Shown here: positions 34,494-62,172 of the stretch, one piece after another
How positions within the stretch are numbered: position 1 is the first letter of the stretch
Layout: each line of letters starts with the position of its first letter
IMG/VR virus record: IMGVR_UViG_3300011442_000001
Coordinates: 28,948-92,947 of that record
DNA length: 64,000 bases
From: a virus
Taxonomy: Duplodnaviria > Caudoviricetes
Reading direction: 5' to 3' (one strand)
Notes under the pieces: model-generated
Database searches by the model: none
What the model saw: only the letters and a program-made list of their open reading frames with translations
What the model was told of the DNA's origin: nothing
Made by a program: the position numbers and the translations under genes

Positions 34494-34576
34494 TTTGGCG
34501 GAAAGTATTTGGGAGGCTGTGACGGCGGGGTTCTCACCCGCTCGTCACAAAATTTAAAGGAACTTTCTGTGCCAAA
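34494..34576 (-). ncRNA. Y-RNA-like motif, copy 1, with internal tRNA minihelix
   Basis: GGC-ACAG-AAAGT-TCCTTTA...ACTTT-CC-GCC; loop holds a 7+5 bp minihelix. Confidence 0.75.
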
Positions 34577-34577
34577 G

Positions 34578-34649
34578 TATGTCCCAAAGGTATCGAGCCT
34601 TCCTACTCCGCTTTTCAGGCAGAAGCTAATCCATCTCAGCTAGGGACAT
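34578..34649 (-). tRNA. tRNA-Phe(GAA)
   Basis: TCTGC-CTGAAAA-GCGGA. Confidence 0.85.
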
Positions 34650-34654
34650 ATAAA

Positions 34655-34879
34655 CTATTTAATTTTTCTGGTACTACGTTTGGTAATCTTCATTTCTCCT
34701 TTATCTACAGGAGGGACATTCTTCTTGAATATTCTAATTACTCCAGCAACTTCAAAAACTAGTTCCAAAGTTCCAAGACCAATAACATAATTGAAGCTTG
34801 ACATGGAAACTGCATTGCATCCTGCCGCAGTACACATAATAACCATGCTGTGAAACAAAAGCCAAATATAGAATACCAT
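34655..34879 (-). CDS. Small membrane protein, C-x4-C family paralog
   Basis: Hydrophobic-CTAAGC-...GTLELVFE-basic tail. Confidence 0.65.
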   Translation of the reverse strand: MVFYIWLLFHSMVIMCTAAGCNAVSMSSFNYVIGLGTLELVFEVAGVIRIFKKNVPPVDKGEMKITKRSTRKIK

Positions 34880-34882
34880 TAT

Positions 34883-35050
34883 CTATTTTCCTCTTTTGTA
34901 AATTCCTATAACACCTTTTATTTCAACTACCATTTCTACCCCTCCGACCACAGCTATTGTAGCAAGGGCTTCAGGAGAACTTGGAGTACAGCCCGCCTCA
35001 TTACAGGCAATTACAATTCTCCACAGCATAAAGAATAAATATATAGTCAT
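34883..35050 (-). CDS. Small membrane protein, C-x4-C family paralog (55 aa, not in track)
   Basis: MTIYLFFMLWRIVIACNEAGC...GGVEMVVEIKGVIGIYKRGK; AAGGA RBS. Confidence 0.65.
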   Translation of the reverse strand: MTIYLFFMLWRIVIACNEAGCTPSSPEALATIAVVGGVEMVVEIKGVIGIYKRGK

Positions 35051-35067
35051 GTTAAAATTCCTTTCTA

Positions 35068-35141
35068 GGTAGCGGACACGGCAATCGAAACCGTTTTTTC
35101 AAGTTTATGAGACTTGTCAGATGCCTTACCTGCCGTCCGCA
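35068..35141 (-). tRNA. tRNA-Met(CAU), initiator-like
   Basis: CAAGT-CTCATAA-ACTTG; 1:72 mismatch. Confidence 0.8.
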
Positions 35142-35146
35142 TCGTA

Positions 35147-35311
35147 TTATTCTTTCTTTCTATAAATCCTAATTATGTTAGGGATTTCGTAAATCATTTC
35201 CAGAAGACCCAATCCTAGCATGGCTTCAAAACTACCTACGCTTATTGAATAGCAACTAGAACCTACACACTCTATGACATATATCCCCAAAGATATTATT
35301 AAAGTAATCAT
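35147..35311 (-). CDS. Small membrane protein, C-x4-C family paralog (54 aa, not in track)
   Basis: MITLIISLGIYVIECVGSSC...GLLEMIYEIPNIIRIYRKKE. Confidence 0.65.
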   Translation of the reverse strand: MITLIISLGIYVIECVGSSCYSISVGSFEAMLGLGLLEMIYEIPNIIRIYRKKE

Positions 35312-35499
35312 TTTTCTTTATCCTTATCCTTCTTCTTGGTAAGTTTTTTATAGAAACGATAGCCACCAATTTCTATAAGCAATTCCAAAAATCCAAATTG
35401 CACCATATTAGCTACAGCTTCGTAGGGAACTTGCACACATTTTCCTGTATAAGTCAGGCATTGCCATGCTAAACCAATATGCAGAATAAATACTAACAT
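35308..35499 (-). CDS. Small membrane protein, C-x6-C family paralog
   Basis: Hydrophobic-CLTYTGKC-...GFLELLIE-basic tail. Confidence 0.65.
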   Translation of the reverse strand: MLVFILHIGLAWQCLTYTGKCVQVPYEAVANMVQFGFLELLIEIGGYRFYKKLTKKKDKDKEK

Positions 35500-35596
35500 T
35501 TTAGTTTCCTATACCACACATACACCTAATCTTCTTTATGTTAGGTTTGTGGATTAGAGATATTCTTACAAGGATTAAAATTAATATTTTCATAAG

Positions 35597-35670
35597 CGGT
35601 CTGTAAGGGTCTCGAACCCTCAACCTTTGCCTTGACAGGGCAACGCTCTGACCAATTGAGCTAACAAACC
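35597..35670 (-). tRNA. tRNA-Asp(GUC)
   Basis: TTGCC-CTGTCAA-GGCAA. Confidence 0.92.
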
Positions 35671-35672
35671 AT

Positions 35673-36002
35673 TTAAAAGTCTTTCCCTAGTTGCTTTATC
35701 ATATTACAGTTGGCACATAAAGTCTGGTATCCTTCTGGATAATTATTATCTACTATCCATTTATAGAAGTTCCATCCAGAGAATTTCTTACTTCCACCCA
35801 CAGCCATTCTTTCTTCTGCTCCATTGTTGTTTATATGGTCTAGTTGTAAGGCTCTTATGTCGGAGAACCCACATTTAGCACAGATATTTCCGTAATAATT
35901 CAATACAAGAGTTTTATATCTTCTTCTATTATTTTTATTGCGAATTCTAGTTTCTTCTTTATGTTCTCCCCTGTACAGTTTAAAATAGTCCGTGCTAATC
36001 AT
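35673..36002 (-). CDS. HNH endonuclease
   Basis: CAKC..LQLDHI..LCANCN. Confidence 0.8.
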   Translation of the reverse strand: MISTDYFKLYRGEHKEETRIRNKNNRRRYKTLVLNYYGNICAKCGFSDIRALQLDHINNNGAEERMAVGGSKKFSGWNFYKWIVDNNYPEGYQTLCANCNMIKQLGKDF

Positions 36003-36041
36003 AACAAACCTCTATATCAATGAACCATTAAAAATCTTCAG

Positions 36042-36114
36042 TGTTCTCGACGGGACTCGAACCCGTATGAAGTGATTGAGAGTCACCTATGCTAGTCCTT
36101 TGCATTACAAGAAC
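36042..36114 (-). tRNA. tRNA-Glu(CUC)
   Basis: GGTGA-CTCTCAA-TCACT. Confidence 0.88.
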
Positions 36115-36118
36115 ATAT

Positions 36119-36212
36119 TTGAGAAGGTAGGTCTTTCTCCTACTAACGGTTTTCACGTTTCCAGATTGACTAGTCGCATAGACTGAGCATGTCCACTCCA
36201 TGCCGCTTCTCT
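36119..36212 (-). ncRNA. tRNA-like RNA without a canonical anticodon arm
   Basis: GAGAAG/CTTCTC acceptor-like stem; GCATG-GAGTGGA-CATGC D-like arm; GTAGG-AGAAAGA-CCTAC T-like arm. Confidence 0.55.
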
Positions 36213-36214
36213 AG

Positions 36215-36285
36215 AGAGTCCAGTCAGAATTGAACTGACCATTACGGTTTTGCAGACCGCTCCCTAACCGATTGGGTTTAGACTC
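36215..36285 (-). tRNA. tRNA-Cys(GCA)
   Basis: GCGGT-CTGCAAA-ACCGT; U73. Confidence 0.88.
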
Positions 36286-36759
36286 ATTTATTCATTATCA
36301 ATAAAACAATCAAAAGAAATACCAGTACTACAATTCTTATTACCAAGCTTTCGGGTCTTTTTCTTTCTGGAATAGGCCCGTAGCTTTTTGCTATCTTCCT
36401 TGAAGGGGGCTTAATATATTTCATTATTAAAACACCATTAGTACTAAGGGTACTGTAGTTATACAATCAAAGAATAAACATAGAGGCCAATACCACCAAG
36501 GGAACTTATATTTTCTAAATAAAACGCCTCTAGCCAGAAAAAATAAAAACATTCTTCCTCCTAACTATGACAGGTCATGCAGACCCATTGTTCTTTTCTC
36601 ACAATAAACACAATAGAGCGGAGCAAAGATGAATTGAGGTTTCATTTGTAATAAACTTTTCTAAGGAGGTCAGCAAGCTTATCTATCAGAAGTGAATTTC
36701 TATTGTCCAAAAATCTAATAAATCTTTTCATGCAATTTCCTTTATTGGGCATCTAGCAG

Positions 36760-36831
36760 TATCTCACTAGCGACTCGAACGCCAATTGCGAAGTTCGTAG
36801 CTTCGTATCCTATCCTTTGAATGAGTGAGAC
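36760..36831 (-). tRNA. tRNA-Arg(ACG)
   Basis: CGAAG-CTACGAA-CTTCG; overlaps the HNH 3' end. Confidence 0.88.
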
Positions 36832-37178
36832 ATTTTGTATTTTCTAAAATTTCCACGTTTAGCAGTTATTCTTTTATGACAATTAGCACAACGAACTTCA
36901 CACTTTCCTATCTCTTTTTGTAATCGTTCTAAACTACAATTGTATAGACTGGCAATGTTAGCTTCTTTAGTTCCCGTAACGTGGTCAAATTCTAAAACGA
37001 TTGGGTCAGTTTCTCCACAATCAACACACGGATGTTCAGATAGATATTTGTCTATGTGTTCAAAGTTTCTTTTAGTTACAGTTTCTTTATTTCTTCTAGC
37101 CTTATCCAAATAGTATTGTTTATTTTCTTTATAATGCTTTTTTCTATTTTGTAACTGTTTCTCTCTGTCTTTGTACAT
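36810..37178 (-). CDS. HNH endonuclease
   Basis: CVDCG..LEFDHV..KCEVRCANCH. Confidence 0.88.
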   Translation of the reverse strand: MYKDREKQLQNRKKHYKENKQYYLDKARRNKETVTKRNFEHIDKYLSEHPCVDCGETDPIVLEFDHVTGTKEANIASLYNCSLERLQKEIGKCEVRCANCHKRITAKRGNFRKYKMSHSFKG

Positions 37179-37180
37179 AC

Positions 37181-37204
37181 TCTTATCCGTTGAACGATAG
37201 ATGC
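37181..37204 (-). pseudogene. 5' remnant of an earlier tRNA-Arg
   Basis: GCATCTA-TC-GTTCAACGGATAAGA; the complementary 3' remnant TAGATGC-CCA is at 36746-36755. Confidence 0.7.
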
Positions 37205-37321
37205 ATTTTACTTAGTATTTTTTCTTTTGCTTTCAGCTTTGGCAAAAGCAACTCCCAATAAGAATGATGTAAGCATGTAGAAAATGATTTCGCTTATTGG
37301 CATAATTTATTCCTTTCTAGG

Positions 37322-37407
37322 CGGAAGATGAGGGATTCGAACCCCCACCCCGAAATGACGGGGGAAAGTTTAGCAAACTTTTGTGATAACCGTTACACCA
37401 ATCTTCC
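37322..37407 (-). tRNA. tRNA-Ser(GCU)
   Basis: AAAGT-TTGCTAA-ACTTT; long variable arm; G73. Confidence 0.9.
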
Positions 37408-37493
37408 AAGGGGAGGCGTCCTGCCATTATATTAGACGACGAAGGCCAGTTTATGTCACTTCGGGGAGACTCGAACTCCCATTTACTCCAAGG
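37408..37493 (-). other. tRNA halves in permuted order (3' half then 5' half), Glu-like
   Basis: 3' half GGAGT-AAAT-GGGAG-TTCGAGT-CTCCC-CGAAGTG-A, then 5' half GCCTTCG-TC-GTCT..GGC-AGGAC-G-CCTCC-CCTT. Confidence 0.6.
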
Positions 37494-37569
37494 CACACCC
37501 GACAGGATTCGAACCTGCATGTATCCGTTAACCTTTCTGAATGTTAGAAGCATTAGGGTATACGGGTGT
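37494..37569 (-). tRNA. Topologically rearranged tRNA-Arg(UCU)
   Basis: 7-bp acceptor and canonical T-arm; AATG-CTTCTAA-CATT directly after nt 8-14; D-loop-like TAACGGATA lies 3' of the anticodon arm. Confidence 0.7.
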
Positions 37570-37575
37570 ATGGTG

Positions 37576-37647
37576 GGTAACTAACTGGGATTGAACCAGT
37601 TTCCTTCGCTTCACAGGCGAATGTAATACCATTATACCATAGTCACC
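37576..37647 (-). tRNA. tRNA-His(GUG)
   Basis: TTCGC-CTGTGAA-GCGAA; G-1:C73. Confidence 0.9.
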
Positions 37648-37659
37648 ATGATTTGTCAA
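37631..37659 (-). promoter_or_regulatory. Sigma70-type promoter overlapping tRNA-His
   Basis: TTGACA-17 nt-TATAAT with TG; the -10 lies in the His D-arm. Confidence 0.6.
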
Positions 37660-37820
37660 GTACTTTCAGATTCTTTTTCTTTCTCTGATACCTCTACAGC
37701 TTCGTTGTATTGTTCTTCTGTTAGCTCTATCCAGTTGCTAGGAGCCATAGGAACATCAACCTTTATAAGCCTTCCTGTTTCACCATGTTGCCAGTATCTC
37801 ATTTTAACTTCCTTTCTAGG

Positions 37821-37893
37821 TGGATGTAGATGGATTCGAACCACCGAATGTCACCTTATCAGAGTGATGAATTAACCACTTTTCTATACATCC
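37821..37893 (-). tRNA. tRNA-Ile(GAU)
   Basis: TCACT-CTGATAA-GGTGA. Confidence 0.9.
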
Positions 37894-37973
37894 AAACTGC
37901 CAATTTTTTTCTATGCTCTCATACTCAATCAAAGTCTATGAAAATAGTTGACATCTAAAACAGTCCCTCTAGG

Positions 37974-38045
37974 CTCACAAGGAAGGATTTGAACCTTCAT
38001 AGTCCCGATTAACAGTCGGACTCATTACCATTATGATACCTGTGA
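37974..38045 (-). tRNA. tRNA-Asn(GUU)
   Basis: TCCGA-CTGTTAA-TCGGG; G73. Confidence 0.9.
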
Positions 38046-38051
38046 ATATGA

Positions 38052-38177
38052 CCGCTATTTACAGGTCGCTCAGTTTAGTAATGCGACACCGTTTGTTTCT
38101 TTACTTGAAACTTAGCACGGTCAACACTAGCCTTACTATACGTCCGAAGTTGACGAACTGCCCTCTATGAATAGCGG
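38052..38177 (-). ncRNA. Second repeated ncRNA motif, copy 1
   Basis: Closing stem CCGCTATT/AATAGCGG; core GAGGGCAGT...AAGAAACAAAC...CTAAACTGAGCGACCTG. Confidence 0.7.
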
Positions 38178-38179
38178 AG

Positions 38180-38252
38180 TGGACATGAAAGGAGTCGAAC
38201 CTTTACAACACGGCTTATAAGACCGTTACGCTCACCATTACGTTACACGTCC
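38180..38252 (-). tRNA. tRNA-Ile(UAU)
   Basis: ACGGT-CTTATAA-GCCGT. Confidence 0.85.
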
Positions 38253-38258
38253 AAAAGG

Positions 38259-38343
38259 CGGAGAATAAAGGAATCGAACCCTTGTCATTTTACTGACAGC
38301 CACGTTTTCAAGACGTGTTTAACACCACTTGATGCTACTCTCC
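38259..38343 (-). tRNA. tRNA-Ser(UGA)
   Basis: CACGT-CTTGAAA-ACGTG; long variable arm; G73. Confidence 0.88.
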
Positions 38344-38435
38344 GTAATAGTCGGCTTATGAGAAAGACTCTTTATCTACTGTCATTGTCTAGAGTTTTAT
38401 TCCGCTGACAAAAGCGGTGTAGAACTTTCCCATAG

Positions 38436-38517
38436 TGGAAGCGGCGGGACTCGAACCCACGAAGCATTTCTGCGTCTGCTTAAAAGGCAGTTACCATTGC
38501 CACTAGGTAACGCTTCC
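38436..38517 (-). tRNA. tRNA with Lys(UUU) anticodon and long variable arm
   Basis: CTGC-CTTTTAA-GCAG; variable arm GCA-GAAA-TGC. Confidence 0.8.
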
Positions 38518-38672
38518 ATGCAAGGACATTTCGTCGTCCCATGAACGCTGACATTTTAAGTCGTTCAGTGACTCATTGTGCTGATACACAAAATAATTGC
38601 GCCGGTGTTTATCTAACTAGTATAACCTACTTCCACCCACACCAGAAAGTCTAAATAGTAGGTTTGAATTTG

Positions 38673-38746
38673 TGGTCTCTAGAGGACTCAAACCTCTAAC
38701 TTCCTTCGTGTAAAAAAGGCTGTCTAATCAATTGGCATAAGAGACC
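38673..38746 (-). tRNA. tRNA-Val(UAC)
   Basis: CCTTT-TTTACAC-GAAGG. Confidence 0.8.
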
Positions 38747-38806
38747 ATGTATTTAACTTTCGTCTTCGCTCTTTTCTTTCAATCTGTAAATCTTTAATCC
38801 AATCTG

Positions 38807-38879
38807 TGCCACCGGAGAGAATCGAACTCCCACTACTTCTTTAAGAGAGAAGTACACTAAACCGTTATGTTACGGAGGC
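38807..38879 (-). tRNA. tRNA-Lys(CUU)
   Basis: CTTCT-CTCTTAA-AGAAG. Confidence 0.85.
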
Positions 38880-39221
38880 ATTGTAAACAAAAACTTTTAG
38901 TCCTAAACCTTCTGCACATTCTATCATGTGTTTAGTACCCACACTCTGTCCATCCCATATAGCAATCAGGGCATTTGCGTAATGGGCCATCATTCTATTT
39001 CTTCGAATACCTGCACTCTTTCCATACTTAGCCCAGTTAGCAGGAAAGATAACCAAGTCTATCCGGTTCTGTTGAGCATAAAGTTCTCCCCAATGGTCTA
39101 CACCTTTAGCATTTCCGCTAACGACTACATCAATCTCAAAACCGCTTGCTTCTATAGCTTTTTTTACCAAGGTGTAACTTTCTACAGAACGAGAACCTGC
39201 AATAATAACTTTCACAGACAT
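38865..39221 (-). CDS. SLOG/YspA-like (DUF2493) protein
   Basis: IIAGSR, VVSG.AKGVD, W.KYGK.AG.RN, WDG.S.GT.HMI. Confidence 0.85.
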   Translation of the reverse strand: MSVKVIIAGSRSVESYTLVKKAIEASGFEIDVVVSGNAKGVDHWGELYAQQNRIDLVIFPANWAKYGKSAGIRRNRMMAHYANALIAIWDGQSVGTKHMIECAEGLGLKVFVYNASVT

Positions 39222-39232
39222 TCCTTTCTTTG

Positions 39233-39323
39233 TGGGCGTGGGAGGAGTCGAACCTCCATGCTTTCTTTCAAGCTATACTGTTTTACAGACAGCCCCGACT
39301 CAGCCACTATTCGGCTCACGCTC
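39233..39323 (-). tRNA. tRNA-Tyr(GUA)
   Basis: GCTGT-CTGTAAA-ACAGT; long variable arm. Confidence 0.85.
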
Positions 39324-39329
39324 ATACGT

Positions 39330-39382
39330 AGGCGGGAAGTAAAGTTTTCTCCAAATGAAATTTAAAGGAACTTCCTGTGCCT
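39330..39382 (-). ncRNA. Y-RNA-like motif, copy 2
   Basis: GGC-ACAG-GAAGT-TCCTTTA...ACTTC-CC-GCC. Confidence 0.75.
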
Positions 39383-39398
39383 TATTTATTATTTAATT

Positions 39399-39452
39399 GG
39401 CGGAGAGTATTTGTCATATGTAATTGAGTTTTTTAGAGGAACTCTCTATGCC
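39399..39452 (-). ncRNA. Y-RNA-like motif, copy 3
   Basis: GGC-ATAG-AGAGT-TCCTCTA...ACTCT-CC-GCC. Confidence 0.75.
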
Positions 39453-39455
39453 TAG

Positions 39456-39540
39456 TGCGGTTGAGAGGACTCGAACCTCCACGCTTTTAAGGGCAGTACA
39501 TTTTGAGTGTACCGTGTTTGCCAATTACAACCACAACCGC
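39456..39540 (-). tRNA. tRNA-Leu(CAA)
   Basis: GTACA-CTCAAAA-TGTAC; long variable arm. Confidence 0.9.
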
Positions 39541-39566
39541 ATTTTTCTTTATTTGATTGTACCCCT

Positions 39567-39595
39567 ATTATATACCCTTTCTTTTGATTTGTCAA
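39567..39595 (-). promoter_or_regulatory. Sigma70-type promoter within the tRNA array
   Basis: TTGACA-17 nt-TATAAT. Confidence 0.85.
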
Positions 39596-39611
39596 GGGCC
39601 GATTTTTCATG

Positions 39612-39701
39612 TACCTCTCAGTTCAGGTCGCTCAGTTTAGGATGTTTGTTTCTTACCCTGCATAGCTCACTTTGTTTTACTGCCCTCAATGCTGAGAGGT
39701 A
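39612..39701 (-). ncRNA. Second repeated ncRNA motif, copy 2
   Basis: Closing stem TACCTCTCAG/CTGAGAGGTA; same core as 38052-38177. Confidence 0.7.
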
Positions 39702-39702
39702 G

Positions 39703-39776
39703 TGCTTCCGAGTGGAGTCGAACCACCAGATTTCACGGTCTAAACGTGTTGCCTATGCCAATTCGGCTACGGAAGC
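39703..39776 (-). tRNA. tRNA-Leu(UAG), short variable loop
   Basis: CACG-TTTAGAC-CGTG; the HNH stop codon lies in nt 8-10. Confidence 0.8.
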
Positions 39777-40210
39777 TTGCTATTGTAAAGAGCATGACAA
39801 TTTGGGCAGACTATTTTTATATTGCTAAAAAAATTATTATTGTGATTCTTATCTATGTGATGCAGTTCTAGTGGAATAGGCTTTCCCATCCACTCTGCCA
39901 AACCACAATCTTCACAAACATGTTCTTTTAGTTTCTCTTTTAGAAGTCTCTTCTTTAGATAGTCTGAGCCAACTGGAAAATTTTCTTTTAGAAACCAAGA
40001 AACATCTCTTCTATTTACAGAAATTCCGCCTTTGTTCCAGCCCATACCAGTAAAATGAGAAAAATCTATTACAAACTTTACTGCTCTAGATTTTATATGA
40101 GATTGAGAACCAGAATTAGGTTTTATTCCAATCTTTCTACAAACTTCTGCCCAACTTTTACTACTCAAGACAATAGGTTCTAAATATTCTTTTGTATATT
40201 TCGTATTCAT
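39767..40210 (-). CDS. HNH endonuclease
   Basis: CEDCG..W.GKPIPLELHHID..NN...N...VCPNCH; likely start MNTKY at 40210. Confidence 0.9.
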   Translation of the reverse strand: MNTKYTKEYLEPIVLSSKSWAEVCRKIGIKPNSGSQSHIKSRAVKFVIDFSHFTGMGWNKGGISVNRRDVSWFLKENFPVGSDYLKKRLLKEKLKEHVCEDCGLAEWMGKPIPLELHHIDKNHNNNFFSNIKIVCPNCHALYNSKLP

Positions 40211-40272
40211 TTTACACATCACCGTGTAGATTTTAGAGAAGCTAGGATGGGTGAGCATCTTCGCTTCTCTAG

Positions 40273-40343
40273 TGGACATCGGCAGAATTGAACTGCCATC
40301 TTCTCATTGCAGGTGAGAAATAATCCCTTTATACGAGACGCCC
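40273..40343 (-). tRNA. tRNA-Ala(UGC)
   Basis: TCTCA-CCTGCAA-TGAGA; G3.U70 identity pair; C33. Confidence 0.85.
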
Positions 40344-40810
40344 ATATTTAAAAATTGATACCAAAAGCTATTCCAAGAACAAATCCACCAATAAGAACTG
40401 CCACTAAAATAATCCAGAACAACTTTGCATGAAACTGTGTAGTCTCCCCGCTGGCAATCTTACTGGGTAATGAATTTTTATGGCCCATAGTTCTCCTTTA
40501 GGTATACATTGTTATTAGAAACATTCCTACAATACAGGATAGAACAAAAATAATTGGTATAATAATACAGACGAAGAATCTTAGACGAATATTGTTTTTC
40601 TTCATGTCTTAAACTGTCTCTTTCTTTTGGAAACTTTCTTCCAACTTCTTTGATATTTATGTTTTAGGTTTTCCCCTAAATGGTATCCACAGAAGGTACA
40701 GGAAATCCCTCTCCCTTGGAGGTAACGCTTACGTGCCTTCTTGTAGATACCGGAGTGTTCAGTTGTGTTCATAATGTTATAACATTTGTTAACAGGCATG
40801 TTACTCCTAG

Positions 40811-40881
40811 AGAGGGTAAAGGAAATCGAATCCTTATCATCCGTTTGGAAGACAGAGGCACAGCCTTTATACCATACCCTC
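40811..40881 (-). tRNA. tRNA-Gly(UCC)
   Basis: TCTGT-CTTCCAA-ACGGA; U73. Confidence 0.85.
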
Positions 40882-41063
40882 ATACAGGGTTAATCTGATT
40901 TTTTTTGTATCCTAGGTGCTTGATAGCCCTGTAAAGATTTCACCTAGCTAGTTTTTGGAGCGGTACTAATCTGGTTTATTAGACTAACTGAGAGTTCCCG
41001 CATGTTGCCAGTTGGACAAGTTATCTACTAATAATTAGTTGGGAAAATTAGTCACTGACTAGG

Positions 41064-41137
41064 CAGGAAATGATGGACTTGAACCACCATGACGAAGGTC
41101 AGAGCTTCGCATCCTAGTCCGTTTGGATGAATTTCCT
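41064..41137 (-). tRNA. tRNA-Gln(CUG)
   Basis: CGAAG-CTCTGAC-CTTCG; G73. Confidence 0.88.
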
Positions 41138-41248
41138 GTATGTACGGTTTTAGTTTTAATTTACGTTAGGAGATAAACCGAAAAACTCCCACGGAATCCA
41201 CATCTTTTTGTAGTGGTGAGCCTTTCAAGACATTTCCACTTTTTTAGG

Positions 41249-41320
41249 CGGTGCAGTAGAGGAGTCGAATCTCTATCGTTCGTTTTGGAGACGAACATAA
41301 TTCCGTTATACCAACTGCCC
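41249..41320 (-). tRNA. tRNA-Trp(CCA)
   Basis: TTCGT-CTCCAAA-ACGAA. Confidence 0.82.
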
Positions 41321-41324
41321 ATAT

Positions 41325-51501: not shown

Positions 51502-52152
51502 TTACTTTACTAAAGATTTAGGTGATTCATCGTTCTCGATGGATTTCTTGAAGAAATATCCACCAGCAGTGTGGTAAATAACAACCCCCTTCGGCTTCAT
51601 AAAACCCGGAGCAGCTTTGCTACCTCCTACTTTCAAGTCTACCATGAGAACTTTCCAGATTTTCTCTGTATCAAATTCTCCGGTATAAAGAACAGGAACA
51701 ACATAACAGGATGGAATTTCCAGACATCTTGTATCCGAATCCATAGTATTTCCATCGTTGAACTTGGAAGTCCATCTGGCTGTATTAAACAGAGAAAATC
51801 TCTTCTCTTTTAGTCCATAGTTTTTCTGAATTCCCTGCCCCCACCACTCACCAAAATGTCTTCCATCACCAAGAGCTAGTAATTCTTCACCATGTTCCGA
51901 TACCCAGCGAGCAAACCCAGAATTGTCTGTCTGTTTACCGGGAGTAATCCAGCGGGTTCTGCTTCCAGCAAACATACACAAAGTACCACCCTCAACTTCC
52001 TTAGCAAAAGCCACAGGCCAGTCTCTTAAACATTCATCTATTCCCCTGCCATAAACTTCCATAGCAATCTGGGCATTTGTTCCATCAATCTTCTCAGTAA
52101 TAACCATTTCCTTACTAAGCCTTGAAATTTTTGAAAAACTCTCGAAATCCAT
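51502..52152 (-). CDS. ATP-dependent RNA ligase (Rnl2-like)
   Basis: TEKIDGTNA (motif I), SR.R, GEW.G.GIQ, F.LFN, G.V; motif IV E is replaced by K. Confidence 0.8.
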   Translation of the reverse strand: MDFESFSKISRLSKEMVITEKIDGTNAQIAMEVYGRGIDECLRDWPVAFAKEVEGGTLCMFAGSRTRWITPGKQTDNSGFARWVSEHGEELLALGDGRHFGEWWGQGIQKNYGLKEKRFSLFNTARWTSKFNDGNTMDSDTRCLEIPSCYVVPVLYTGEFDTEKIWKVLMVDLKVGGSKAAPGFMKPKGVVIYHTAGGYFFKKSIENDESPKSLVK

Positions 52153-57043: not shown

Positions 57044-57816
57044 AGTAAAATCCTTCCTTTCGAAGAAATTTGTATCTTTCCGGTCTTCAAAAGCACCGGC
57101 TCAATTTGAGAACTTAGGGTTGCCTTATCTATTTGCAGAATATTTGACAGCAAAGTTAGGCTGGCTTTTCCTCCAACAGTTCCCAGCACTTCTAGGTATC
57201 TTCTGCACAGAGTATCTTGTCCATCAAAGATACCAAATATATCTGCTAGAATCTGGTCAAAGTTTGCCAGTGATGGAGAGATTGCTGGATTTTGCTTGAA
57301 ATACAATCCAAAATTATCCACCAAAGCTTTCAGAACTCTAGGATTCCTATTTGCCGCCCTTACTAGCTTAAGAAAATTTTCCTCAGATGTTCTGAAAGGA
57401 GAACCCTCCATAGCCATCAGAAGAAGTTCATCATCCAAATATTCTGTAAAAATAAACTCGTCACATCTATTTACTAATGCTTCCGGTAAACCTCCTGTCT
57501 GGTTTGTGGCTAAAACAAATACGTGTTCTTGCTTATCAAGAAAGGGAAACAGGATTTCATACTCTTTCATCCTGTGTATTTCATCAATAAAAATCACACG
57601 CTTTCTGAACAAGAATTCACGACGGTCATATAGATAATACTCGAAGTCTTTTCCTGCCAGAAAATCGCAAATTGCAAGTGCCAGAGTAGTTTTCCCATAA
57701 CCTGACGGGCCAACTAGCAGAATTCCTCTTCTAGCCCCTTTGTCAGGATTTGCATCTAACTCTACGAGAAGCATACTCACCAAATGCATGATGTGATGCT
57801 GGCCGATAAATTGCAT
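57040..57816 (-). CDS. RuvB-like AAA+ ATPase
   Basis: FIGQ, GPSGYGKTTLA, FIDEIH, ATN..G.LP..L..R, IEP.L....I..SSKGR. Confidence 0.8.
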   Translation of the reverse strand: MQFIGQHHIMHLVSMLLVELDANPDKGARRGILLVGPSGYGKTTLALAICDFLAGKDFEYYLYDRREFLFRKRVIFIDEIHRMKEYEILFPFLDKQEHVFVLATNQTGGLPEALVNRCDEFIFTEYLDDELLLMAMEGSPFRTSEENFLKLVRAANRNPRVLKALVDNFGLYFKQNPAISPSLANFDQILADIFGIFDGQDTLCRRYLEVLGTVGGKASLTLLSNILQIDKATLSSQIEPVLLKTGKIQISSKGRILL

Positions 57817-57824
57817 AGAAACCT

Positions 57825-59078
57825 CTACTTCTTTCCTTCAGATTCAATTTTTGCTACTAAAGCTTTCTGAGTTTCTTCATCATTGAAAAACCACGGATAT
57901 TGTATATCCTTATCGTATCTCCAAATTCCGAAGGTAAAATTGCAGAGAGCCTTTTTCATGGCTTTTCTCTGTTCTTTCGTGATAATACTCTTGGAAATGG
58001 CGGGGATAACTACTTCGCAGAAGTTTTTGATATAATGTTCCTGAACTTCTTTCATGGAAGCATCATAGCAAATCATCAGTAAAGTGTGTATATCCTTGAG
58101 AGTGAGAGAATATGCAATTTGAAACTGGTAAATCATTTCTGCATACTTTGCGGCAGCAGTTTTCTTACCTGTCGAAGTCATCCCACCATTTTTCTTCCCA
58201 CTCTCTTCCGTAAAATTTTTCGCACCAGCCCCCTGCCAAGAACTGTAGTAAGTTGCAGGAGCATAAGATTCCTTAATTTCCCCGATTTTTGTCAGACCAC
58301 TTTCTTCTGCAACAAATATTGTTTCTTCTGGTACGAGTTCTACCTTGGAGAACTTGAGAGTAGTTCCATCTTCCATCTGGATAAGGTTGGAGAGAAGATT
58401 TGTAGAGAAGTCTAGAACTTTAGAGCTAGTATTAACTGCCCAGCCCAAATTTTCATTCTTTTCTCCCAGAATATACGTGATATTCAACTCCTTGGTTTTT
58501 CCACGAACAACAAAGTAAACACCTTCAATCAGAAAAACCATAGCGAATGTTCCATAGAATAATTTCATGGTTTCTGTAAAGACGACCACGAATTTCTTCT
58601 GCAAATCTGGCTCTCCATTCTCCTTAAAATTCTTCATGAACTCTTCAAAGAAAATCAGACTATCAGACCGACTGATATATTTTGCGATGGTTGCCTTGGT
58701 CTTTTCATCATAGACTTCTTCTTTGATTTCCATGTCGAACTTTTTCTCATCAAATGGTGTGAGTTTTCCGTTGTGAACAAATGTCACACCATCCAAAGTG
58801 AAAGGATGTGAGTTTTCCACACACACTGGAACTTTGGGAGAAGCCTGACGAATATGTCCCAGAAAAATTCCATTATTTTCTGGAGTTTGTGTATCCCAAA
58901 GCATACTTCCTGCATTAAATGTGCTGTGAAGCGGGAGATGACTTTTTACCACAGCTTCTCCCGGTAAAATATACCCCCATCCATCGTCGTGTTCTAGGGA
59001 ACCCGTAGAACCGGCAAGCAAGAAGAAAAGTTTGTTATACCTTTCTCCGCCGAGATTTCCAATCGTTATCTGGCACAT
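57825..59078 (-). CDS. Class II (Ntn) glutamine amidotransferase
   Basis: N-terminal Cys2, DG.G, GH.R.AS, NSHPF, HNG, DS. Confidence 0.85.
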   Translation of the reverse strand: MCQITIGNLGGERYNKLFFLLAGSTGSLEHDDGWGYILPGEAVVKSHLPLHSTFNAGSMLWDTQTPENNGIFLGHIRQASPKVPVCVENSHPFTLDGVTFVHNGKLTPFDEKKFDMEIKEEVYDEKTKATIAKYISRSDSLIFFEEFMKNFKENGEPDLQKKFVVVFTETMKLFYGTFAMVFLIEGVYFVVRGKTKELNITYILGEKNENLGWAVNTSSKVLDFSTNLLSNLIQMEDGTTLKFSKVELVPEETIFVAEESGLTKIGEIKESYAPATYYSSWQGAGAKNFTEESGKKNGGMTSTGKKTAAAKYAEMIYQFQIAYSLTLKDIHTLLMICYDASMKEVQEHYIKNFCEVVIPAISKSIITKEQRKAMKKALCNFTFGIWRYDKDIQYPWFFNDEETQKALVAKIESEGKK

Positions 59079-60454
59079 TAATCTTCATCTCCTTCTGAGG
59101 ATTCTTCATCCTCAACTTCTGGCTCGGACTCTTCTTCAAAAGATTCATCATTTACTATCGTATCATTTTCTACAAAGAATCCATCATCGGACTCGGAACT
59201 ATTCTTTTTAGGAACATCTGGATAAGGCTCACAGTCATAAATTGAGCTTGGATTCTCCTTGATATTATGTATATCCAGATAATGAGGAGGAAGAACCTTG
59301 GAGAAAAATTCCAACTTTCCCATCTTAGCAATTTCTAAAGAGATTGTATTGGAATCATCCTTGACATGTGTAAGAACAGGAATAGCAGGAATTTCCACAA
59401 AATGAGACAGGGAAATTGCTTCCAGAATTACCGCAACCTCCTCTTCGTCTGGAAGATTCTCCAATTCATATCCATGACATAGTGATACAATTTTGTTCAC
59501 AATAGTCAAGGCATCTGACATAGAAACTTCCTTGTTAGATTCTACCACTTCCAGAGTGGAAAGGTCTCTCTTATTTATTACAGTGGAAAGTTCCACAATT
59601 CCTCTGAGAAACTTTGCTATTGCCATAATCAGGTACGCATCGTGGGACTGATTGAAATGACGAAATTCCATAGTTCCGTGCTGTGGAACACTGTAGAAAT
59701 TAGACCCGGAATATCTGCACGGAGCATATTTAGCAGAACCTCCGCCGGAACGATATGCAACACCAAAACCGGCCCAAAATTCTGTCAAAGTTTTGGCATC
59801 CATCGCCTGTATAGGATTGATAATTCTTGCGTACCTTTTTTCTGTATCTCTTGTGGAAACATTTACTGCAACAGAATTTAGCAAAGGTCTGGCATAGGCA
59901 CTTCTGTTAATTTGTCCCCTGAATGTCCTACCCATTCCCCCCAGCCTAAAAAGCACAGGGTCAATCTGCAAGCAAATCTTTAACAAGGATTGCAGAATTC
60001 TGAGATTGTTGCCAAATCCTATGTGATAATGTATGGCCGCTCTATTGGAAAGAAAATCTCCAGAAGCAACCAGATAATTCTCCAGAGGATAAATCAGAGA
60101 CTCAAGTTGGGGAATTTCCAAAGGAGTTGTCACCAGTTCATAGCCCATAATTTTGTTCTCATACTTAATGTCAGAAAATAGTGAAGACATCTCTGGTGTA
60201 TGATTTGACACCAAAATTAGTCCCACATTTGTTCTGATATAAGTGGCGTTGAATTCTGTACTGGCATCATGGGTGATAGCTATTTGCCCACCAGTGTACG
60301 GATAGGCTTTTTTCATATTATTTATCATAGTGGGTAGGTTATTTTCCTTATCCAGAGAAATTCCCTCCTGTTCCATGCCAACAGTATCGAACAATTGACC
60401 GAAAAAACCATTAGGCATTTTTAAGTACCTCCTTTCATGAGATTTTTGGAACAA
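59078..60454 (-). CDS. Putative amidoligase (COOH-NH2 ligase)
   Basis: G.E.E, D.S, E.VT.P, IH.HI, RY...N, GT.EFR. Confidence 0.8.
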   Translation of the reverse strand: MFQKSHERRYLKMPNGFFGQLFDTVGMEQEGISLDKENNLPTMINNMKKAYPYTGGQIAITHDASTEFNATYIRTNVGLILVSNHTPEMSSLFSDIKYENKIMGYELVTTPLEIPQLESLIYPLENYLVASGDFLSNRAAIHYHIGFGNNLRILQSLLKICLQIDPVLFRLGGMGRTFRGQINRSAYARPLLNSVAVNVSTRDTEKRYARIINPIQAMDAKTLTEFWAGFGVAYRSGGGSAKYAPCRYSGSNFYSVPQHGTMEFRHFNQSHDAYLIMAIAKFLRGIVELSTVINKRDLSTLEVVESNKEVSMSDALTIVNKIVSLCHGYELENLPDEEEVAVILEAISLSHFVEIPAIPVLTHVKDDSNTISLEIAKMGKLEFFSKVLPPHYLDIHNIKENPSSIYDCEPYPDVPKKNSSESDDGFFVENDTIVNDESFEEESEPEVEDEESSEGDED

Positions 60455-60484
60455 ACATTACATAGTTTCAATAGTAACTCCTTT

Positions 60485-61393
60485 CTATGAACGTTCCTTT
60501 AGAATTTCTGGATAAAACACAGAAGTACCACTGACAGGAAAATGGGATGGAAAATCGTTACCAATAGCCCAGTCAAAATACTTTGCATATTTTCCTGACA
60601 CGTAGGGAGTTCCGACATCTGGGTCAGTGTTAAGCTCACAAATTGCCATAGAATTGTCGTGAGCATTCCACATAATATCCACGGCGGCATAGTCCAGTCC
60701 AAGAACCTCAGAAGCCTTGATAGATTCTATACACAAAGCTGGATTGAATTCGCTCCAATCTAACACACGCCAAAATCCTGAATTTACTTCTGAAGTTTCC
60801 ATGATATTTCCCTTGGCAAAGGATTTCTGGTGAACCAGCAAAACTTTCCCATGAGCAACGTGAATGCGAAATTCATGTGTTTTGTTGAAAACTTCTGACA
60901 CATACCAGTCTTCAACATTTTTCCCCCACAGAAAGACCATCAGTTCTTCAACAGTATTCAGGACATGGAAATCCCTACCCTTAAGGTGGCGGAAAGGTCT
61001 GGCGATTACCGGGAAAATTACATCCTGATAATATGCTGTAGACATATTTGGTTCAGGAAAGACGGTGTAAGGAACACTTACCTTGGCTTCCTGCAAGAGT
61101 CTTCTGGCAGTTCTCTTGTTGGATGTCTTTGAAATAGCCGATGGAACATTCAGGCGAAAATAATCGTCATTTGCAAAGATACGATTTCCCCAATTTATGA
61201 CGTTATTCTTTCCGTTCCACAGAATTGATTTGATACTGCCCAGATGTTTCCATGTTTTTTCGTGCTGAGTTCTTTCATACCAATTGTTCTCCCCTCTTTT
61301 GGCAACAAGATTACAGGGAGCTTCCATAGAATCCTGTATCATTTCTGTGTACTTGTCTCCAGAATATTCATGATGGTACAAAATATAATTCAT
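60485..61393 (-). CDS. ATP-grasp peptide ligase (RimK-like)
   Basis: INWG, NK, EFR.H, LGLDYAAVD, ELN. Confidence 0.8.
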   Translation of the reverse strand: MNYILYHHEYSGDKYTEMIQDSMEAPCNLVAKRGENNWYERTQHEKTWKHLGSIKSILWNGKNNVINWGNRIFANDDYFRLNVPSAISKTSNKRTARRLLQEAKVSVPYTVFPEPNMSTAYYQDVIFPVIARPFRHLKGRDFHVLNTVEELMVFLWGKNVEDWYVSEVFNKTHEFRIHVAHGKVLLVHQKSFAKGNIMETSEVNSGFWRVLDWSEFNPALCIESIKASEVLGLDYAAVDIMWNAHDNSMAICELNTDPDVGTPYVSGKYAKYFDWAIGNDFPSHFPVSGTSVFYPEILKERS

Positions 61394-61764
61394 TTCTTTT
61401 TCCTTTCTGAGAGATATTGTTTCCAGCTTCCACTTTGGATTTTTTCATAAAGTTCTTCGTTCCGTTTCTCCTTGGGCATGAAATATATCCACGCCTTTCC
61501 TGCAAAAGTATCTACTTCTTTTCTGTCATAAAAGTGTGGATAGCCCTCCAGACGGTCTAATCTCTGGAAAGTTTCAGTATCAATTTTCCAGACCTCTCCT
61601 AGGACGGAAGTGGTGGATGTTTCATCAGAAATACAGGCAGGATATGCACCAAGACTTACCATAGTAAATCCTGATACGATTTCTGTACCCATTCTTTCCG
61701 ATGTTTTGAGCAGGCGATTATTTGCTTCGCCTTTCATCAAAGTTCCATACACAAAAACTAACAT
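61390..61764 (-). CDS. Gamma-glutamylcyclotransferase (AIG2-like)
   Basis: VFVYGTL..G..N, GEV, LD.LEGYP..Y.R. Confidence 0.9.
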   Translation of the reverse strand: MLVFVYGTLMKGEANNRLLKTSERMGTEIVSGFTMVSLGAYPACISDETSTTSVLGEVWKIDTETFQRLDRLEGYPHFYDRKEVDTFAGKAWIYFMPKEKRNEELYEKIQSGSWKQYLSERKKK

Positions 61765-61777
61765 AGTTTTTTTCCTT

Positions 61778-62026
61778 TTATTTTAACTTGATAATCCACT
61801 CATTGTCTGTCATGGTAATACTTTTCACCAGAGATGCGGAAAATACTGTTCCACAGTTTACTCCAATTTCAAAGACATAACATCTGTGTGGATTCTTTTC
61901 CCAGAATGCTCTATCAGTATCTAGGAGAGGCTGATATCTAAAAATACCAGCAGTTCCGCTTGCGTTTTCCACCCTGCAAATTGCTGCTTTATCTGCCAAC
62001 AAATTCAACTGCTCTTGAAAGTTCAT
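61778..62026 (-). CDS. Hypothetical protein
   Basis: 82-aa ORF with AGGAGG RBS. Confidence 0.55.
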   Translation of the reverse strand: MNFQEQLNLLADKAAICRVENASGTAGIFRYQPLLDTDRAFWEKNPHRCYVFEIGVNCGTVFSASLVKSITMTDNEWIIKLK

Positions 62027-62061
62027 AGCTTCCTCCTTTCTTTTAGAATGAAAAAACTTAC

Positions 62062-62099
62062 TAACCAGAAACTACCAATTTCTTGATAATTTCTGGTTA
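62062..62099 (-). terminator. Terminator-like hairpin
   Basis: TAACCAGAAA...TTTCTGGTTA followed by a T-run on the minus strand. Confidence 0.55.
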
Positions 62100-62119
62100 A
62101 TAAATCCCCCTAGATTTTC

Positions 62120-62172
62120 GGGCGGTGAGTAATAAAATTAAAAGTTTTTTGTAAAGGAACTCAACTATGCCC
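62120..62172 (-). ncRNA. Y-RNA-like motif, copy 4
   Basis: GGGC-ATAG-T-TGAGT-TCCTTTA...ACTCA-CC-GCCC. Confidence 0.75.

What the first reader, a model, noticed from the sequence alone, without database searches (positions are those of the whole stretch)
34494..62172. Candidate RNP system: four covarying Y-RNA-like RNAs, a Ro/TROVE-TerD-like protein and an RNA ligase
Seen (minus strand): four dispersed copies (34494-34576, 39330-39382, 39399-39452, 62120-62172) of GGC-AYAG-[stem]-TCCTYTA-variable loop-[stem']-CC-GCC. The inner stem is fully compensatory: AAAGT/ACTTT, GAAGT/ACTTC, AGAGT/ACTCT, TGAGT/ACTCA. The asymmetric bulge and TCCT tract are invariant. Three copies are wedged between tRNA genes, so tRNA processing would release them. 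The fourth ends the operon encoding a helical protein with a TerD-like C-terminus (62932-64000). Established: Ro60/TROVE proteins bind a bulged helix formed by the ends of Y RNAs and associate with RNA-repair ligases. From memory, unverified: divergent TROVE-TerD fusions have been proposed. Inference: a phage Ro-like protein with a modular RNA family (constant handle, swappable loop) works with the Rnl2-like ligase (51502) in tRNA repair or anti-defence decoying.
Basis: partly seen in the sequence, partly recalled or inferred. Interest (0 to 1): 0.9.

Follow-up and report, generated by a model that had tools for sequence, protein, structure and literature searches.

The report
Phage handle RNAs with TerD-fold partner protein
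This phage carries eight copies of a small folded RNA with one conserved "handle", plus a 627-residue protein gene that accompanies this RNA family in about 120 other phage and bacterial loci; together they look like an undescribed RNA-protein particle organised like Ro60 with its Y RNAs.

Summary
The genome (92,947 bp, 123-bp end repeat) holds eight copies of the motif, not four, all on the transcribed minus strand. The fold is P1 GGC/GCC, an internal loop 5'-AYA/3'-C, a covarying 6-bp P2, then an invariant GUUCCU opening a variable loop.

A covariance model finds the motif 190 times in 75 of 79 viral loci that encode a homologue of the 627-aa protein, nearly always just upstream and always on the same strand. 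It finds none in 864 kb of control viral DNA. Eleven of 11 testable records retrieved by RNA pattern alone encode the protein.

In other phages the loop holds a permuted tRNA-like domain that matches Rfam YrlA below its threshold. In others the handle replaces the anticodon loop of a tRNA.

The protein has no Pfam, PHROG or NCBIfam family. Its model (pLDDT 93) shows a helical N-domain and a TerD-like beta-sandwich. Resemblance to Ro60 is weak (Z about 6; hhalign 0.5%), so TROVE membership is unproven. Canonical Ro60 was absent from all 11 phage genomes checked.

The RNA ligase link is not general (4 of 10 genomes).

This scan's notes mention the same system 125 times, in at least 82 genomes. 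I found it in no paper or catalogue.

The parts
34497..34573 (-). Handle RNA c1 (77 nt). P2 is AAAGT/ACTTT. The loop carries its own 12-bp GC-rich hairpin. It lies between tRNA-Phe and tRNA-Thr.
   Evidence: (50.4 bits, E 1.8e-12); tRNAs.
39399..39452 (-). Handle RNA c2 (54 nt). P2 is AGAGT/ACTCT. It starts 2 nt after tRNA-Leu(CAA).
   Evidence: 62.5 bits. A syntenic copy in a related contig (L131) has a G-C to A-U change in the sixth pair.
39331..39381 (-). Handle RNA c3 (51 nt). P2 is GAAGT/ACTTC. It ends 7 nt before tRNA-Tyr.
   Evidence: 66.7 bits; near-identical copy in L131.
62121..62171 (-). Handle RNA c4 (51 nt). P2 is TGAGT/ACTCA with one extra U. It is the last element of the transcription unit.
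   Evidence: 53.9 bits.
62057..62104 (-). Terminator-like hairpin with a T run, directly after c4.
   Evidence: consensus scan only.
62932..64000 (-). C-terminal 355 codons of the 627-aa partner protein: the end of the helical domain plus the TerD-like beta-sandwich, with motifs RIDLDFSL and LFSGDMTDA..GSSELFY. The N-terminal 271 codons lie at genome 938..124, outside the window across the record's ends.
   Evidence: The two halves of the own protein are 46% and 42% identical to P0001. Fold of P0001.
62181..62915 (-). 244-aa ORF between the partner gene and c4. It has no family and no homologue in 127 other loci, so it is probably not part of the conserved module.
34289..41320 (-). tRNA gene cluster (22 genes by ARAGORN, one more by Rfam) that hosts c1-c3.
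51502..52152 (-). It is real, but not shown to belong to the module.
   Evidence: PF09414 E 1.1e-10; phrog_548 E 6e-29; co-occurrence 4 of 10.

Best explanation
The eight elements are genes for small stable RNAs. They share a protein-binding handle: P1, a 5'-AYA/3'-C internal loop, a 6-bp P2 and an invariant GUUCCU. Each presents a variable loop, the 'cargo'.

The 627-aa protein is their dedicated partner. It has a helical N-domain plus a TerD-like, probably metal-binding, beta-sandwich. Protein and RNAs would form a particle organised like Ro60 with its Y RNAs.

In this phage the RNAs are made in two ways. Five flank the protein gene in one transcription unit: c5, two ORFs, c6-c8, orf188, orf627, orf244, c4, terminator. 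Three lie inside the tRNA precursor, where RNase P and 3' trimming of the neighbouring tRNAs would release them.

The likely role is in tRNA/RNA surveillance, repair or protection during infection, with the cargo loop recruiting or decoying tRNA-recognising factors.

Shown: the RNA fold, the family, and its near-obligate genomic coupling to the protein. Inferred: physical binding, RNA processing and the cellular role.
For: Protein predicts RNA:
- Model R1 gives 190 hits in 75 of 79 viral loci that carry the protein. All are on the gene's strand. Of the 150 best, 142 lie upstream, and the last copy ends a median of about 24 nt before the start codon.
- It hits 39 of 45 prokaryote-genome loci.
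- Nearly all misses lack upstream DNA. L220 has weaker hits with filters off, and L249 has a permuted form.
- Control: 0 hits in 864 kb of other viral loci.

RNA predicts protein:
- 4 of 4 and 7 of 7 testable records found by RNA pattern alone encode the protein.

No other conserved neighbour exists.

The structure acts as RNA:
- 99.9% of cells are paired, with 203 cells changed on both sides, 10 G-U cells and only 1 non-pair.

Kinship with Y RNAs:
- Long loops hold a T arm, a closed acceptor stem and a D arm, and match YrlA RF02553 at 35-49.5 bits.
- Six loci graft the handle onto the anticodon stem of a normally ordered tRNA.
- The handle's 5' strand, GGCAYAG, resembles the proposed Rsr site GNCGAAN0-1G (PMC4201824).

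Canonical Ro60 is absent from all 11 phage genomes tested.

Context:
- The gene lies inside tRNA clusters in Synechococcus phages S-CRM01 and S-CBWM1 and in many contigs.
- One Desulfobacterales locus reads rtcB, handle RNA, handle RNAs, protein.
Against: - There is no experimental evidence of transcripts, processing or binding.
- The protein's helical domain has no significant structural or sequence match, so RNA binding is inferred only from genomic coupling.
- The last handle usually abuts the ribosome-binding site, so part of the signal could be cis-regulation.
- The eight copies in this phage lack the tRNA-like cargo. Only c1 has a hairpin, so the Y-RNA/tRNA-mimic argument rests on relatives.
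- High protein conservation (57-65% identity across many phages), with invariant H, K, S, T, D and E clusters at the domain interface, would also fit an enzyme.
- RNA-repair genes are not consistently linked.
Confidence: 0.62

Rival explanations
1. The motif is only a cis-acting leader or operator. The protein, or another factor, binds the 5' UTR of its own mRNA to control translation. The tandem copies are repeated operators, not separate RNAs.
For: Of the 150 best copies, 142 lie upstream of the gene. The last copy ends 8-44 nt before the start codon in about two thirds of loci. In G005 and G002 the handle ends 5-15 nt before an ATG with no Shine-Dalgarno sequence.
Against: Three copies in this phage lie 23-28 kb away, inside the tRNA cluster. 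S-CBWM1 has a copy among tRNAs 2.5 kb upstream, and Phass-1 has six copies 1.3 kb downstream. c4 and other copies lie downstream of the gene. Loops carry whole tRNA-like domains that match YrlA. Autoregulation may well coexist with a trans role.
Confidence: 0.13
2. The pair is an enzyme and its RNA substrate or cofactor. The protein would modify, cleave, ligate or otherwise act on the handle or its cargo, for instance maturing or editing tRNA-like RNAs, rather than serving as a scaffold.
For: Sequence conservation is unusually high, with near-invariant polar residues: N68, H72, K73, S74, Q90, H93, Y94 and T96-G99 in the N-domain, and D435, D437, S463-D465 and E477 in the TerD-like domain. The 64-124 segment is confidently modelled only when the TerD-like domain is present, which suggests an interdomain pocket. 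The handle sits where a tRNA anticodon loop would be.
Against: No catalytic fold or motif was recognised. TerD domains are known as Ca-binding modules, not enzymes. Handle sequences are conserved like a binding site.
Confidence: 0.12
3. The protein is a true, highly diverged Ro60 orthologue: a TROVE ring with the vWA domain replaced by TerD. The RNAs are then bona fide Y RNAs.
For: Ro60 chains are the only PDB targets that align over more than 200 residues of the helical domain: 1yvp_A Z 5.9-6.0 with 224-270 aligned, 2i91_A Z 5.5 with 233, and phage Ro60 9l5y_B Z 6.1 with 159-162. The cargo is YrlA-like. GGCAYAG resembles GNCGAAN0-1G. Ro60 is absent from these phages.
Against: Z of 4.7-6.1 at rmsd 5-6 A lies in the noise zone for helical repeats. 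hhalign against a Ro60 profile gives 0.5% probability, though that profile was shallow. None of 64 members hits Pfam TROVE even at E 1. In Bythopirellula a canonical Ro60 gene lies 1.8 kb from the TerD-fold gene, so the two coexist.
Confidence: 0.2
4. The elements act on DNA, not RNA: iterons, origin hairpins, or recombination or mobile-element ends recognised by the adjacent protein.
For: They form tandem arrays next to a large conserved gene. Two copies or arrays bracket a gene cassette in this phage.
Against: All of about 260 copies lie on the gene's coding strand. G-U pairs are tolerated while A-C is not. The loops contain tRNA-like domains. Copies abut tRNA genes at processing distance.
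Confidence: 0.03

Closest known systems
Ro60 (Rsr; TROVE + vWA) with Y RNAs, especially YrlA/YrlB of bacteria and phages (Rfam RF02553; Chen et al. 2014, PMC4201824)
   Same: - One protein gene of about 550-650 aa is flanked by one to several small RNA genes.
- The RNAs have a conserved bulged stem formed by their ends and a modular distal part.
- In relatives that distal part is a circularly permuted tRNA-like domain (T arm, closed acceptor stem, D arm) that scores on the YrlA model.
- The protein has a helical body followed by a putative metal-binding domain.
- There is occasional linkage to rtcB, as in the Salmonella rsr-yrlBA-rtcBA operon.
   Different: - The protein has no detectable TROVE or vWA_Ro60 domain.
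- Its C-terminal domain is a TerD-like beta-sandwich.
- The handle is a different sequence and structure: GGC, AYA/C, 6-bp P2, GUUCCU.
- No copy reaches the YrlA gathering score.
- Many members, including all eight here, have short unstructured loops instead of a tRNA mimic.
- Arrays reach 6-8 copies and are often embedded in phage tRNA clusters.
TerD-family proteins (TerD/TerE/TerZ; PDB 2kxt, 3ibz, 2qz7)
   Same: The C-terminal domain (about residues 415-580 of P0001) superposes on TerD with Foldseek probability 1.00. VIA gives Z 11.4 (146 aligned, rmsd 3.1) and Z 10.7 (145 aligned, rmsd 2.9). DLD and SGD.TDA motifs recall the TerD Ca-binding loops.
   Different: Pfam TerD (PF02342) is not hit. 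The domain is fused to a 385-aa helical domain. It has no ter-operon context and no known link of TerD to RNA.
MXAN_6230/SCO0854 family RING domain-containing proteins (NCBIfam NF041916)
   Same: The Atlas structure search gives TM 0.71 over 584 aligned residues. hhalign of the family profile against a myxobacterial member gives 95% probability, E 3e-8, over the TerD-like core. These are the nearest cellular relatives.
   Different: The cellular proteins are 850-1000 aa with a RING finger. No handle RNA was found beside the two loci examined. Their function is also unknown.
T4 species 1 and 2 RNAs (rnaC, rnaD): small stable RNAs of unknown function encoded in the phage tRNA cluster (from my own knowledge, not checked here)
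   Same: Small structured RNAs are co-transcribed and co-processed with phage tRNAs.
   Different: There is no known dedicated protein partner, no shared handle and no sequence relation.

Membership tests
Ro60 / TROVE proteins | Sequence match to the TROVE domain (PF05731) and the Ro60 vWA domain (PF25045) | tested here: not met
   There are no Pfam hits for the own halves, P0001 or any of 64 members, even at E 1. hhalign of the family profile against a Ro60 profile gives 0.5% probability (the Ro60 profile was shallow, Neff 1.7). A true Ro60 from L255 hits both models readily.
Ro60 / TROVE proteins | Closed HEAT-repeat ring fold | tested here: inconclusive
   VIA-align gives 1yvp_A Z 5.9-6.0 (224-270 aligned, rmsd 5.2-6.2), 2i91_A Z 5.5 (233 aligned) and 9l5y_B Z 6.1 (159-162 aligned). 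These give the longest coverage of any target but lie in the noise zone for helical proteins. Model coordinates could not be inspected for ring closure.
Ro60 / TROVE proteins | Binds Y RNA on the outer ring surface and misfolded RNA ends in the central hole | not testable with these tools
   This needs EMSA, CLIP or a structure.
Y RNA / YrlA (Rfam RF02553) | Score at or above the family's gathering threshold (69 bits) | tested here: not met
   The eight copies here give no hit, even at E 5. Long-loop relatives score 35-49.5 bits, E 3e-10 to 1e-4.
Y RNA / YrlA (Rfam RF02553) | tRNA-like domain (T arm, D arm, closed acceptor stem) carried on a stem formed by the RNA's ends | tested here: met
   Met for relatives L209, L183, L211, L215, L201, L175 and L218. 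Not met for the eight copies of this phage: c1 has only a GC hairpin and the others have loops of 20-25 nt.
Y RNA / YrlA (Rfam RF02553) | Encoded next to, and bound by, Ro60/Rsr | tested here: not met
   No TROVE gene was found in this genome or in 10 other phage genomes with the RNAs. The adjacent conserved gene is the TerD-fold protein instead.
TerD domain | TerD beta-sandwich fold | tested here: met
   Foldseek matches 2kxt, 3ibz, 2qng and 2qz7 with probability 1.00 and TM (by target) 0.57-0.59. VIA gives Z 11.4 and 10.7. The test used P0001, which is 42-46% identical to the window's protein. The window's protein keeps the motifs.
TerD domain | Ca2+ binding through acidic loops | not testable with these tools
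   D435, D437, D465 and E477 are 90% or more conserved. Metal binding was not modelled.
Rnl2-type RNA ligase (the gene at 51502) | Match to the RNA ligase nucleotidyltransferase domain | tested here: met
   PF09414 E 1.1e-10 and phrog_548 E 6e-29. The specific Rnl2 equivalog reaches only E 0.015, and DRB0094-type E 4e-4. It is therefore an RNA-ligase-family protein, with subtype unresolved.

The most novel reading that the evidence does not exclude
The helical+TerD protein and its handle RNAs form a second, evolutionarily separate (or extremely diverged) class of Y-RNA-type ribonucleoprotein. It is widespread in tailed phages and scattered bacteria and archaeal MAGs. A constant RNA handle docks on the protein, and interchangeable cargo (tRNA mimics, whole tRNAs, minihelices, open loops) recruits or decoys tRNA-recognising enzymes. 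This would give phages a programmable tool to protect, repair or police their tRNA pool against host anticodon nucleases.
Probability: 0.4. Interest if true: 0.9.

Novelty: new variant of a known kind. Interest (0 to 1): 0.8.

Why it matters
Ro60 with Y RNAs is the only well-known particle in which a modular tRNA-like RNA tethers or gates an RNA-surveillance protein, and its bacterial role is still poorly understood.

This finding is a parallel system. It has a different protein (at least 1,439 clusters at 50% identity, in no Pfam, PHROG or NCBIfam family) and a different RNA handle (not in Rfam). It is concentrated in phages and often lies inside their tRNA gene clusters.

If the pair is a particle, it would:
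- explain a large family of "hypothetical" phage proteins and many unannotated intergenic arrays;
- give a function to non-tRNA spacers in phage tRNA clusters;
- provide a natural series of cargo swaps for asking what Y-type RNAs recruit.

Two cultured cyanophages (S-CRM01 g174, S-CBWM1 gp22) and gut phage Phass-1 carry the pair. The two cyanophages have named Synechococcus hosts, so they are the place to test it.

Tried and rejected
- Known RNA families: Rfam at gathering threshold and at E 5 gives nothing on the eight copies. From my own reading of the sequence I rejected a K-turn (no tandem G-A), an intrinsic terminator (no T run after the copies), a sigma-54 promoter (TGGCAC appears only in some copies, and the stems covary), a CRISPR-like array (the stems pair across the variable part and differ between units) and an integron attC site (no GTTRRRY).
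- Megablast and tblastn against GenBank phages with window DNA and with the amidoligase gave no match.
- The first loose pattern scan of viral contigs returned mostly chance hits; 1 of about 119 passed my stem filter.
- PDB sequence searches with P0001 and with the family profile found nothing.
- Foldseek with the N-domain alone gave no match at E 0.001 or better.
- The search for related loci with the 64-sequence alignment failed on genome contigs; a 13-sequence alignment worked.
- Own neighbours orf188, orf244, orf124, orf73 and orf82 have no homologues in 127 other loci. No neighbour family occurs in more than 7 loci, and those are DNA methylase, PD-(D/E)XK nuclease, PolA and endonuclease I.
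- No handle RNA lies beside RING_SCO0854 genes.
- Paper searches for TROVE+TerD, YrlA+phage, SCO0854/Prok-RING and Y RNA+bacteriophage found no description of this pair.
- Complex prediction was not used: it takes no RNA, and two copies of the protein exceed its size limit.

Full report
**Observation**

The 5' half of the motif alone (GGCAYAG-N2-8-GTTCCTYTA) matches four times in the window, against none in 100 shuffles. The 3' halves were not part of that pattern, yet each is the exact complement of its 5' stem, so the complementarity is an independent observation.

The window is bases 28948-92947 of a 92,947-bp IMG/VR virus record whose ends repeat 123 bp. I built a covariance model (R1) from 11 copies. 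It finds eight copies in the genome, all on the minus strand: the four reported and four more at genome 2369-2321, 1700-1644, 1644-1589 and 1579-1525.

RNAfold and the wider alignment refine the fold:
- P1 is GGC/GCC and is sometimes longer.
- The internal loop is 5'-AYA / 3'-C.
- P2 has six pairs, R-NNN-G-U / A-C-NNN-Y.
- The loop always opens with UCCU(N)UA and closes with U.
- One copy (c7) has a C-C mismatch in P2.

**Gene layout**

Reading the minus strand across the record's ends, the order is: c5, a 73-aa ORF, a 124-aa ORF, c6-c7-c8, a 188-aa ORF, a 627-aa ORF (genome 938 through the end repeat to window 62932), a 244-aa ORF (window 62915-62181), c4, and a terminator-like hairpin.

The other three copies sit in the tRNA cluster, 2-8 nt from the ends of tRNA-Phe, tRNA-Thr, tRNA-Leu(CAA) and tRNA-Tyr. 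Ordinary tRNA end-processing would free them; this is an inference.

**The RNA family is real and widespread**

An RNA-only pattern scan of IMG/VR, followed by my stem filter, found complete motifs in five other contigs. One is a fragment of a close relative with the same tRNA order. It has copies at the same place between tRNA-Leu and tRNA-Tyr, with a G-C to A-U change in the sixth P2 pair.

On 150 copies from about 70 phage loci:
- 99.9% of cells pair;
- six of eight pairs show changes on both sides (203 cells);
- no shuffle of 500 reaches the observed covariation score;
- sliding the partners destroys the signal.

That alignment was fitted to the model, which inflates pairing somewhat. The covariation at the three central P2 pairs (for example A-U 54, G-C 34, C-G 27, U-A 20) is nonetheless unambiguous. 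Ten G-U cells against one non-pair, and the strict co-orientation with the neighbouring gene, point to RNA rather than DNA.

**Coupling to the protein**

All four testable contigs found through the RNA alone encode a homologue of the 627-aa protein directly downstream of the RNAs.

Starting from the protein, I fetched 80 viral loci.
- R1 hits 190 times in 75 of the 79 loci searched, always on the gene's strand.
- Three of the four misses have no upstream DNA, and the fourth (L220) has weaker hits with filters off.
- Among the 150 best hits, 142 are upstream, the last one ends a median of about 24 nt before the start codon, and spacers between copies are mostly 1-30 nt.

In 45 loci from prokaryote genome records, 39 have hits. 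Five of the six misses lack upstream DNA, and the sixth (L249) has a permuted form.

A control of 864 kb of unrelated viral loci, chosen because they match the 5' half of the motif by chance, gives no hit. A second RNA-only pattern found seven records, and all seven encode the protein.

No other gene is conserved nearby. The own neighbours have no homologues in 127 loci, and the commonest neighbour families occur in at most 7 loci and are ordinary phage DNA-metabolism genes.

The conserved module is therefore the protein plus its RNAs.

**Cargo**

In this phage the loops are 20-25 nt and A/U-rich, except c1, which holds a 12-bp GC hairpin.

In other phages some loops are 90-110 nt and fold into a T arm, an acceptor stem closed by a loop, and a D arm. 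This is a circularly permuted tRNA joined to the handle through its anticodon stem. These copies match Rfam YrlA (Y RNA-like) at 35-49.5 bits, with E from 3e-10 to 1e-4, below the 69-bit gathering score. The score comes mainly from the tRNA-like part.

In six loci the connectivity is reversed. A normally ordered tRNA body carries, in place of its anticodon loop, the 3' half of the handle, a small loop closing P1, and the 5' half. Two connectivities giving the same architecture argue that handle plus tRNA body is one folded unit.

The handle's 5' strand, GGCAYAG, recalls the motif GNCGAAN0-1G proposed as the Rsr site of YrlA (PMC4201824). I treat this as a lead, not a test.

**The protein**

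The family is large: 1,439 clusters at 50% identity with E 0.001 or better, with hits mostly 600-660 aa long. Almost all are unnamed, with no Pfam, PHROG or NCBIfam assignment.

AlphaFold2, run on a 64-sequence alignment headed by P0001 (42-46% identical to this phage's protein), gives pLDDT 93 and pTM 0.92.

Residues about 415-580 are a TerD-like beta-sandwich:
- Foldseek probability 1.00 to 2kxt, 3ibz and 2qz7;
- VIA Z 11.4 and 10.7.

The window's own sequence keeps the RIDLDFSL and LFSGDMTDA..GSSELFY motifs.

The helical domain (1-385) has no clear match.
- Ro60 chains are the only targets that align over more than 200 residues: 1yvp_A Z 5.9-6.0, 2i91_A Z 5.5, and phage Ro60 9l5y_B Z 6.1 with about 160 aligned.
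- These Z values are in the noise zone for helical proteins.
- hhalign against a Ro60 profile, built from a real Ro60 found in L255, gives 0.5% probability.

I therefore call TROVE membership unproven and, by sequence, not met.

The nearest cellular relatives are the MXAN_6230/SCO0854 RING proteins (Atlas TM 0.71; hhalign 95% over the TerD-like core). No handle RNA lies beside the two loci I examined.

**Context and the ligase**

Canonical Ro60 is absent from this genome and from ten other phage genomes with the module. The YrlA-like RNAs there have no Ro60 to bind.

The gene lies inside tRNA clusters in cultured Synechococcus phages S-CRM01 (g174) and S-CBWM1 (gp22), beside a tRNA in gut phage Phass-1, and in about a quarter of the metagenomic loci.

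The RNA ligase gene at 51502 is real. However, PF09414 occurs in only 4 of 10 other genomes with the module, so a dedicated partnership is not supported.

Links to RNA repair exist but are sporadic:
- a Desulfobacterales chromosome has rtcB, handle RNA, handle RNAs, protein;
- a Bythopirellula chromosome has a canonical Ro60 gene 1.8 kb away on the other strand.

Other bacterial copies sit among housekeeping genes.

**Interpretation**

The best-supported reading is a two-component ribonucleoprotein: a dedicated protein, and small RNAs that share its binding handle and display variable cargo. It is organised like Ro60 with Y RNAs but has a different protein and a different handle.

Binding, processing and function are inferred. 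The strongest rivals are pure cis-regulation, which likely coexists because the last handle abuts the start codon, and an enzyme-substrate relation.

**Novelty**

The pair is absent from Rfam 15, Pfam, PHROGs and NCBIfam, and I found no paper describing it.

The notes of this scan mention the same system 125 times, in at least 82 genomes, and once at the other end of this genome. My tests were made independently and agree with their main claim. They do not confirm the stronger wording 'Ro60-shaped'.

Noticed in passing
window 36215-36285 (-): Rfam calls a tRNA here (48.5 bits) that ARAGORN does not list, so the cluster may hold 23 tRNA genes. Earlier notes of the scan flag odd or rearranged tRNAs at 37408-37569.
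   Followed up: no
window 33468-33548 (+): There is a sub-threshold match to cyanobacterial sRNA Yfr10 (RF02362: 38.8 bits against gathering 43, E 0.014), on the strand opposite to the local genes.
   Followed up: no
window 57825-61764 (-): A run of genes has GATase-like (weak), Amidoligase_2 (E 4e-7) and gamma-glutamyl cyclotransferase GGACT (E 2e-27) domains. It looks like a small-molecule or peptide-modification cassette, directly downstream of c4.
   Followed up: no
L154:960-1526 (-) (genome 1526..960, just outside the window): The start codon of the 188-aa ORF between the c6-c8 array and the 627-aa gene overlaps the 3' end of c8. It has a weak hit to a vWA domain family (ivWA PF19997, E 0.016). 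No homologue occurs in the other loci. This is curious because Ro60 carries a vWA domain.
   Followed up: partly
L151:480-590 (+), and L249, L252, L253, L168, L179: Complete tRNA bodies have their anticodon loop replaced by a circularly permuted handle (P2 3' strand, C, P1 hairpin, AYA, P2 5' strand, UCCU). ARAGORN does not call them.
   Followed up: yes
L251:1454-5854 (+) (Desulfobacterales MAG, 220-kb contig): rtcB (PF01139, E 5e-113) is followed by a handle RNA, two more handles, the TerD-fold gene and a HEAT-repeat protein. This layout recalls the Salmonella rsr-yrlBA-rtcBA operon.
   Followed up: partly
L255:7681-9330 (-) (Bythopirellula chromosome): A canonical Ro60 gene (TROVE + vWA_Ro60) lies 1.8 kb from the TerD-fold gene, with a PcfJ-like gene between them.
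   Followed up: partly
L236:7014-7480 (+) (Phage Phass-1, OQ749652.1): Six tandem handle RNAs overlap a CDS annotated as a hypothetical protein (record 92744-93043). That CDS is probably not a gene.
   Followed up: no
window 63878-64000 and genome 1-123: The 123-bp terminal repeat lies inside the 627-aa ORF. The record is therefore probably a circular or permuted assembly cut within this gene, not a genome with fixed ends there.
   Followed up: partly
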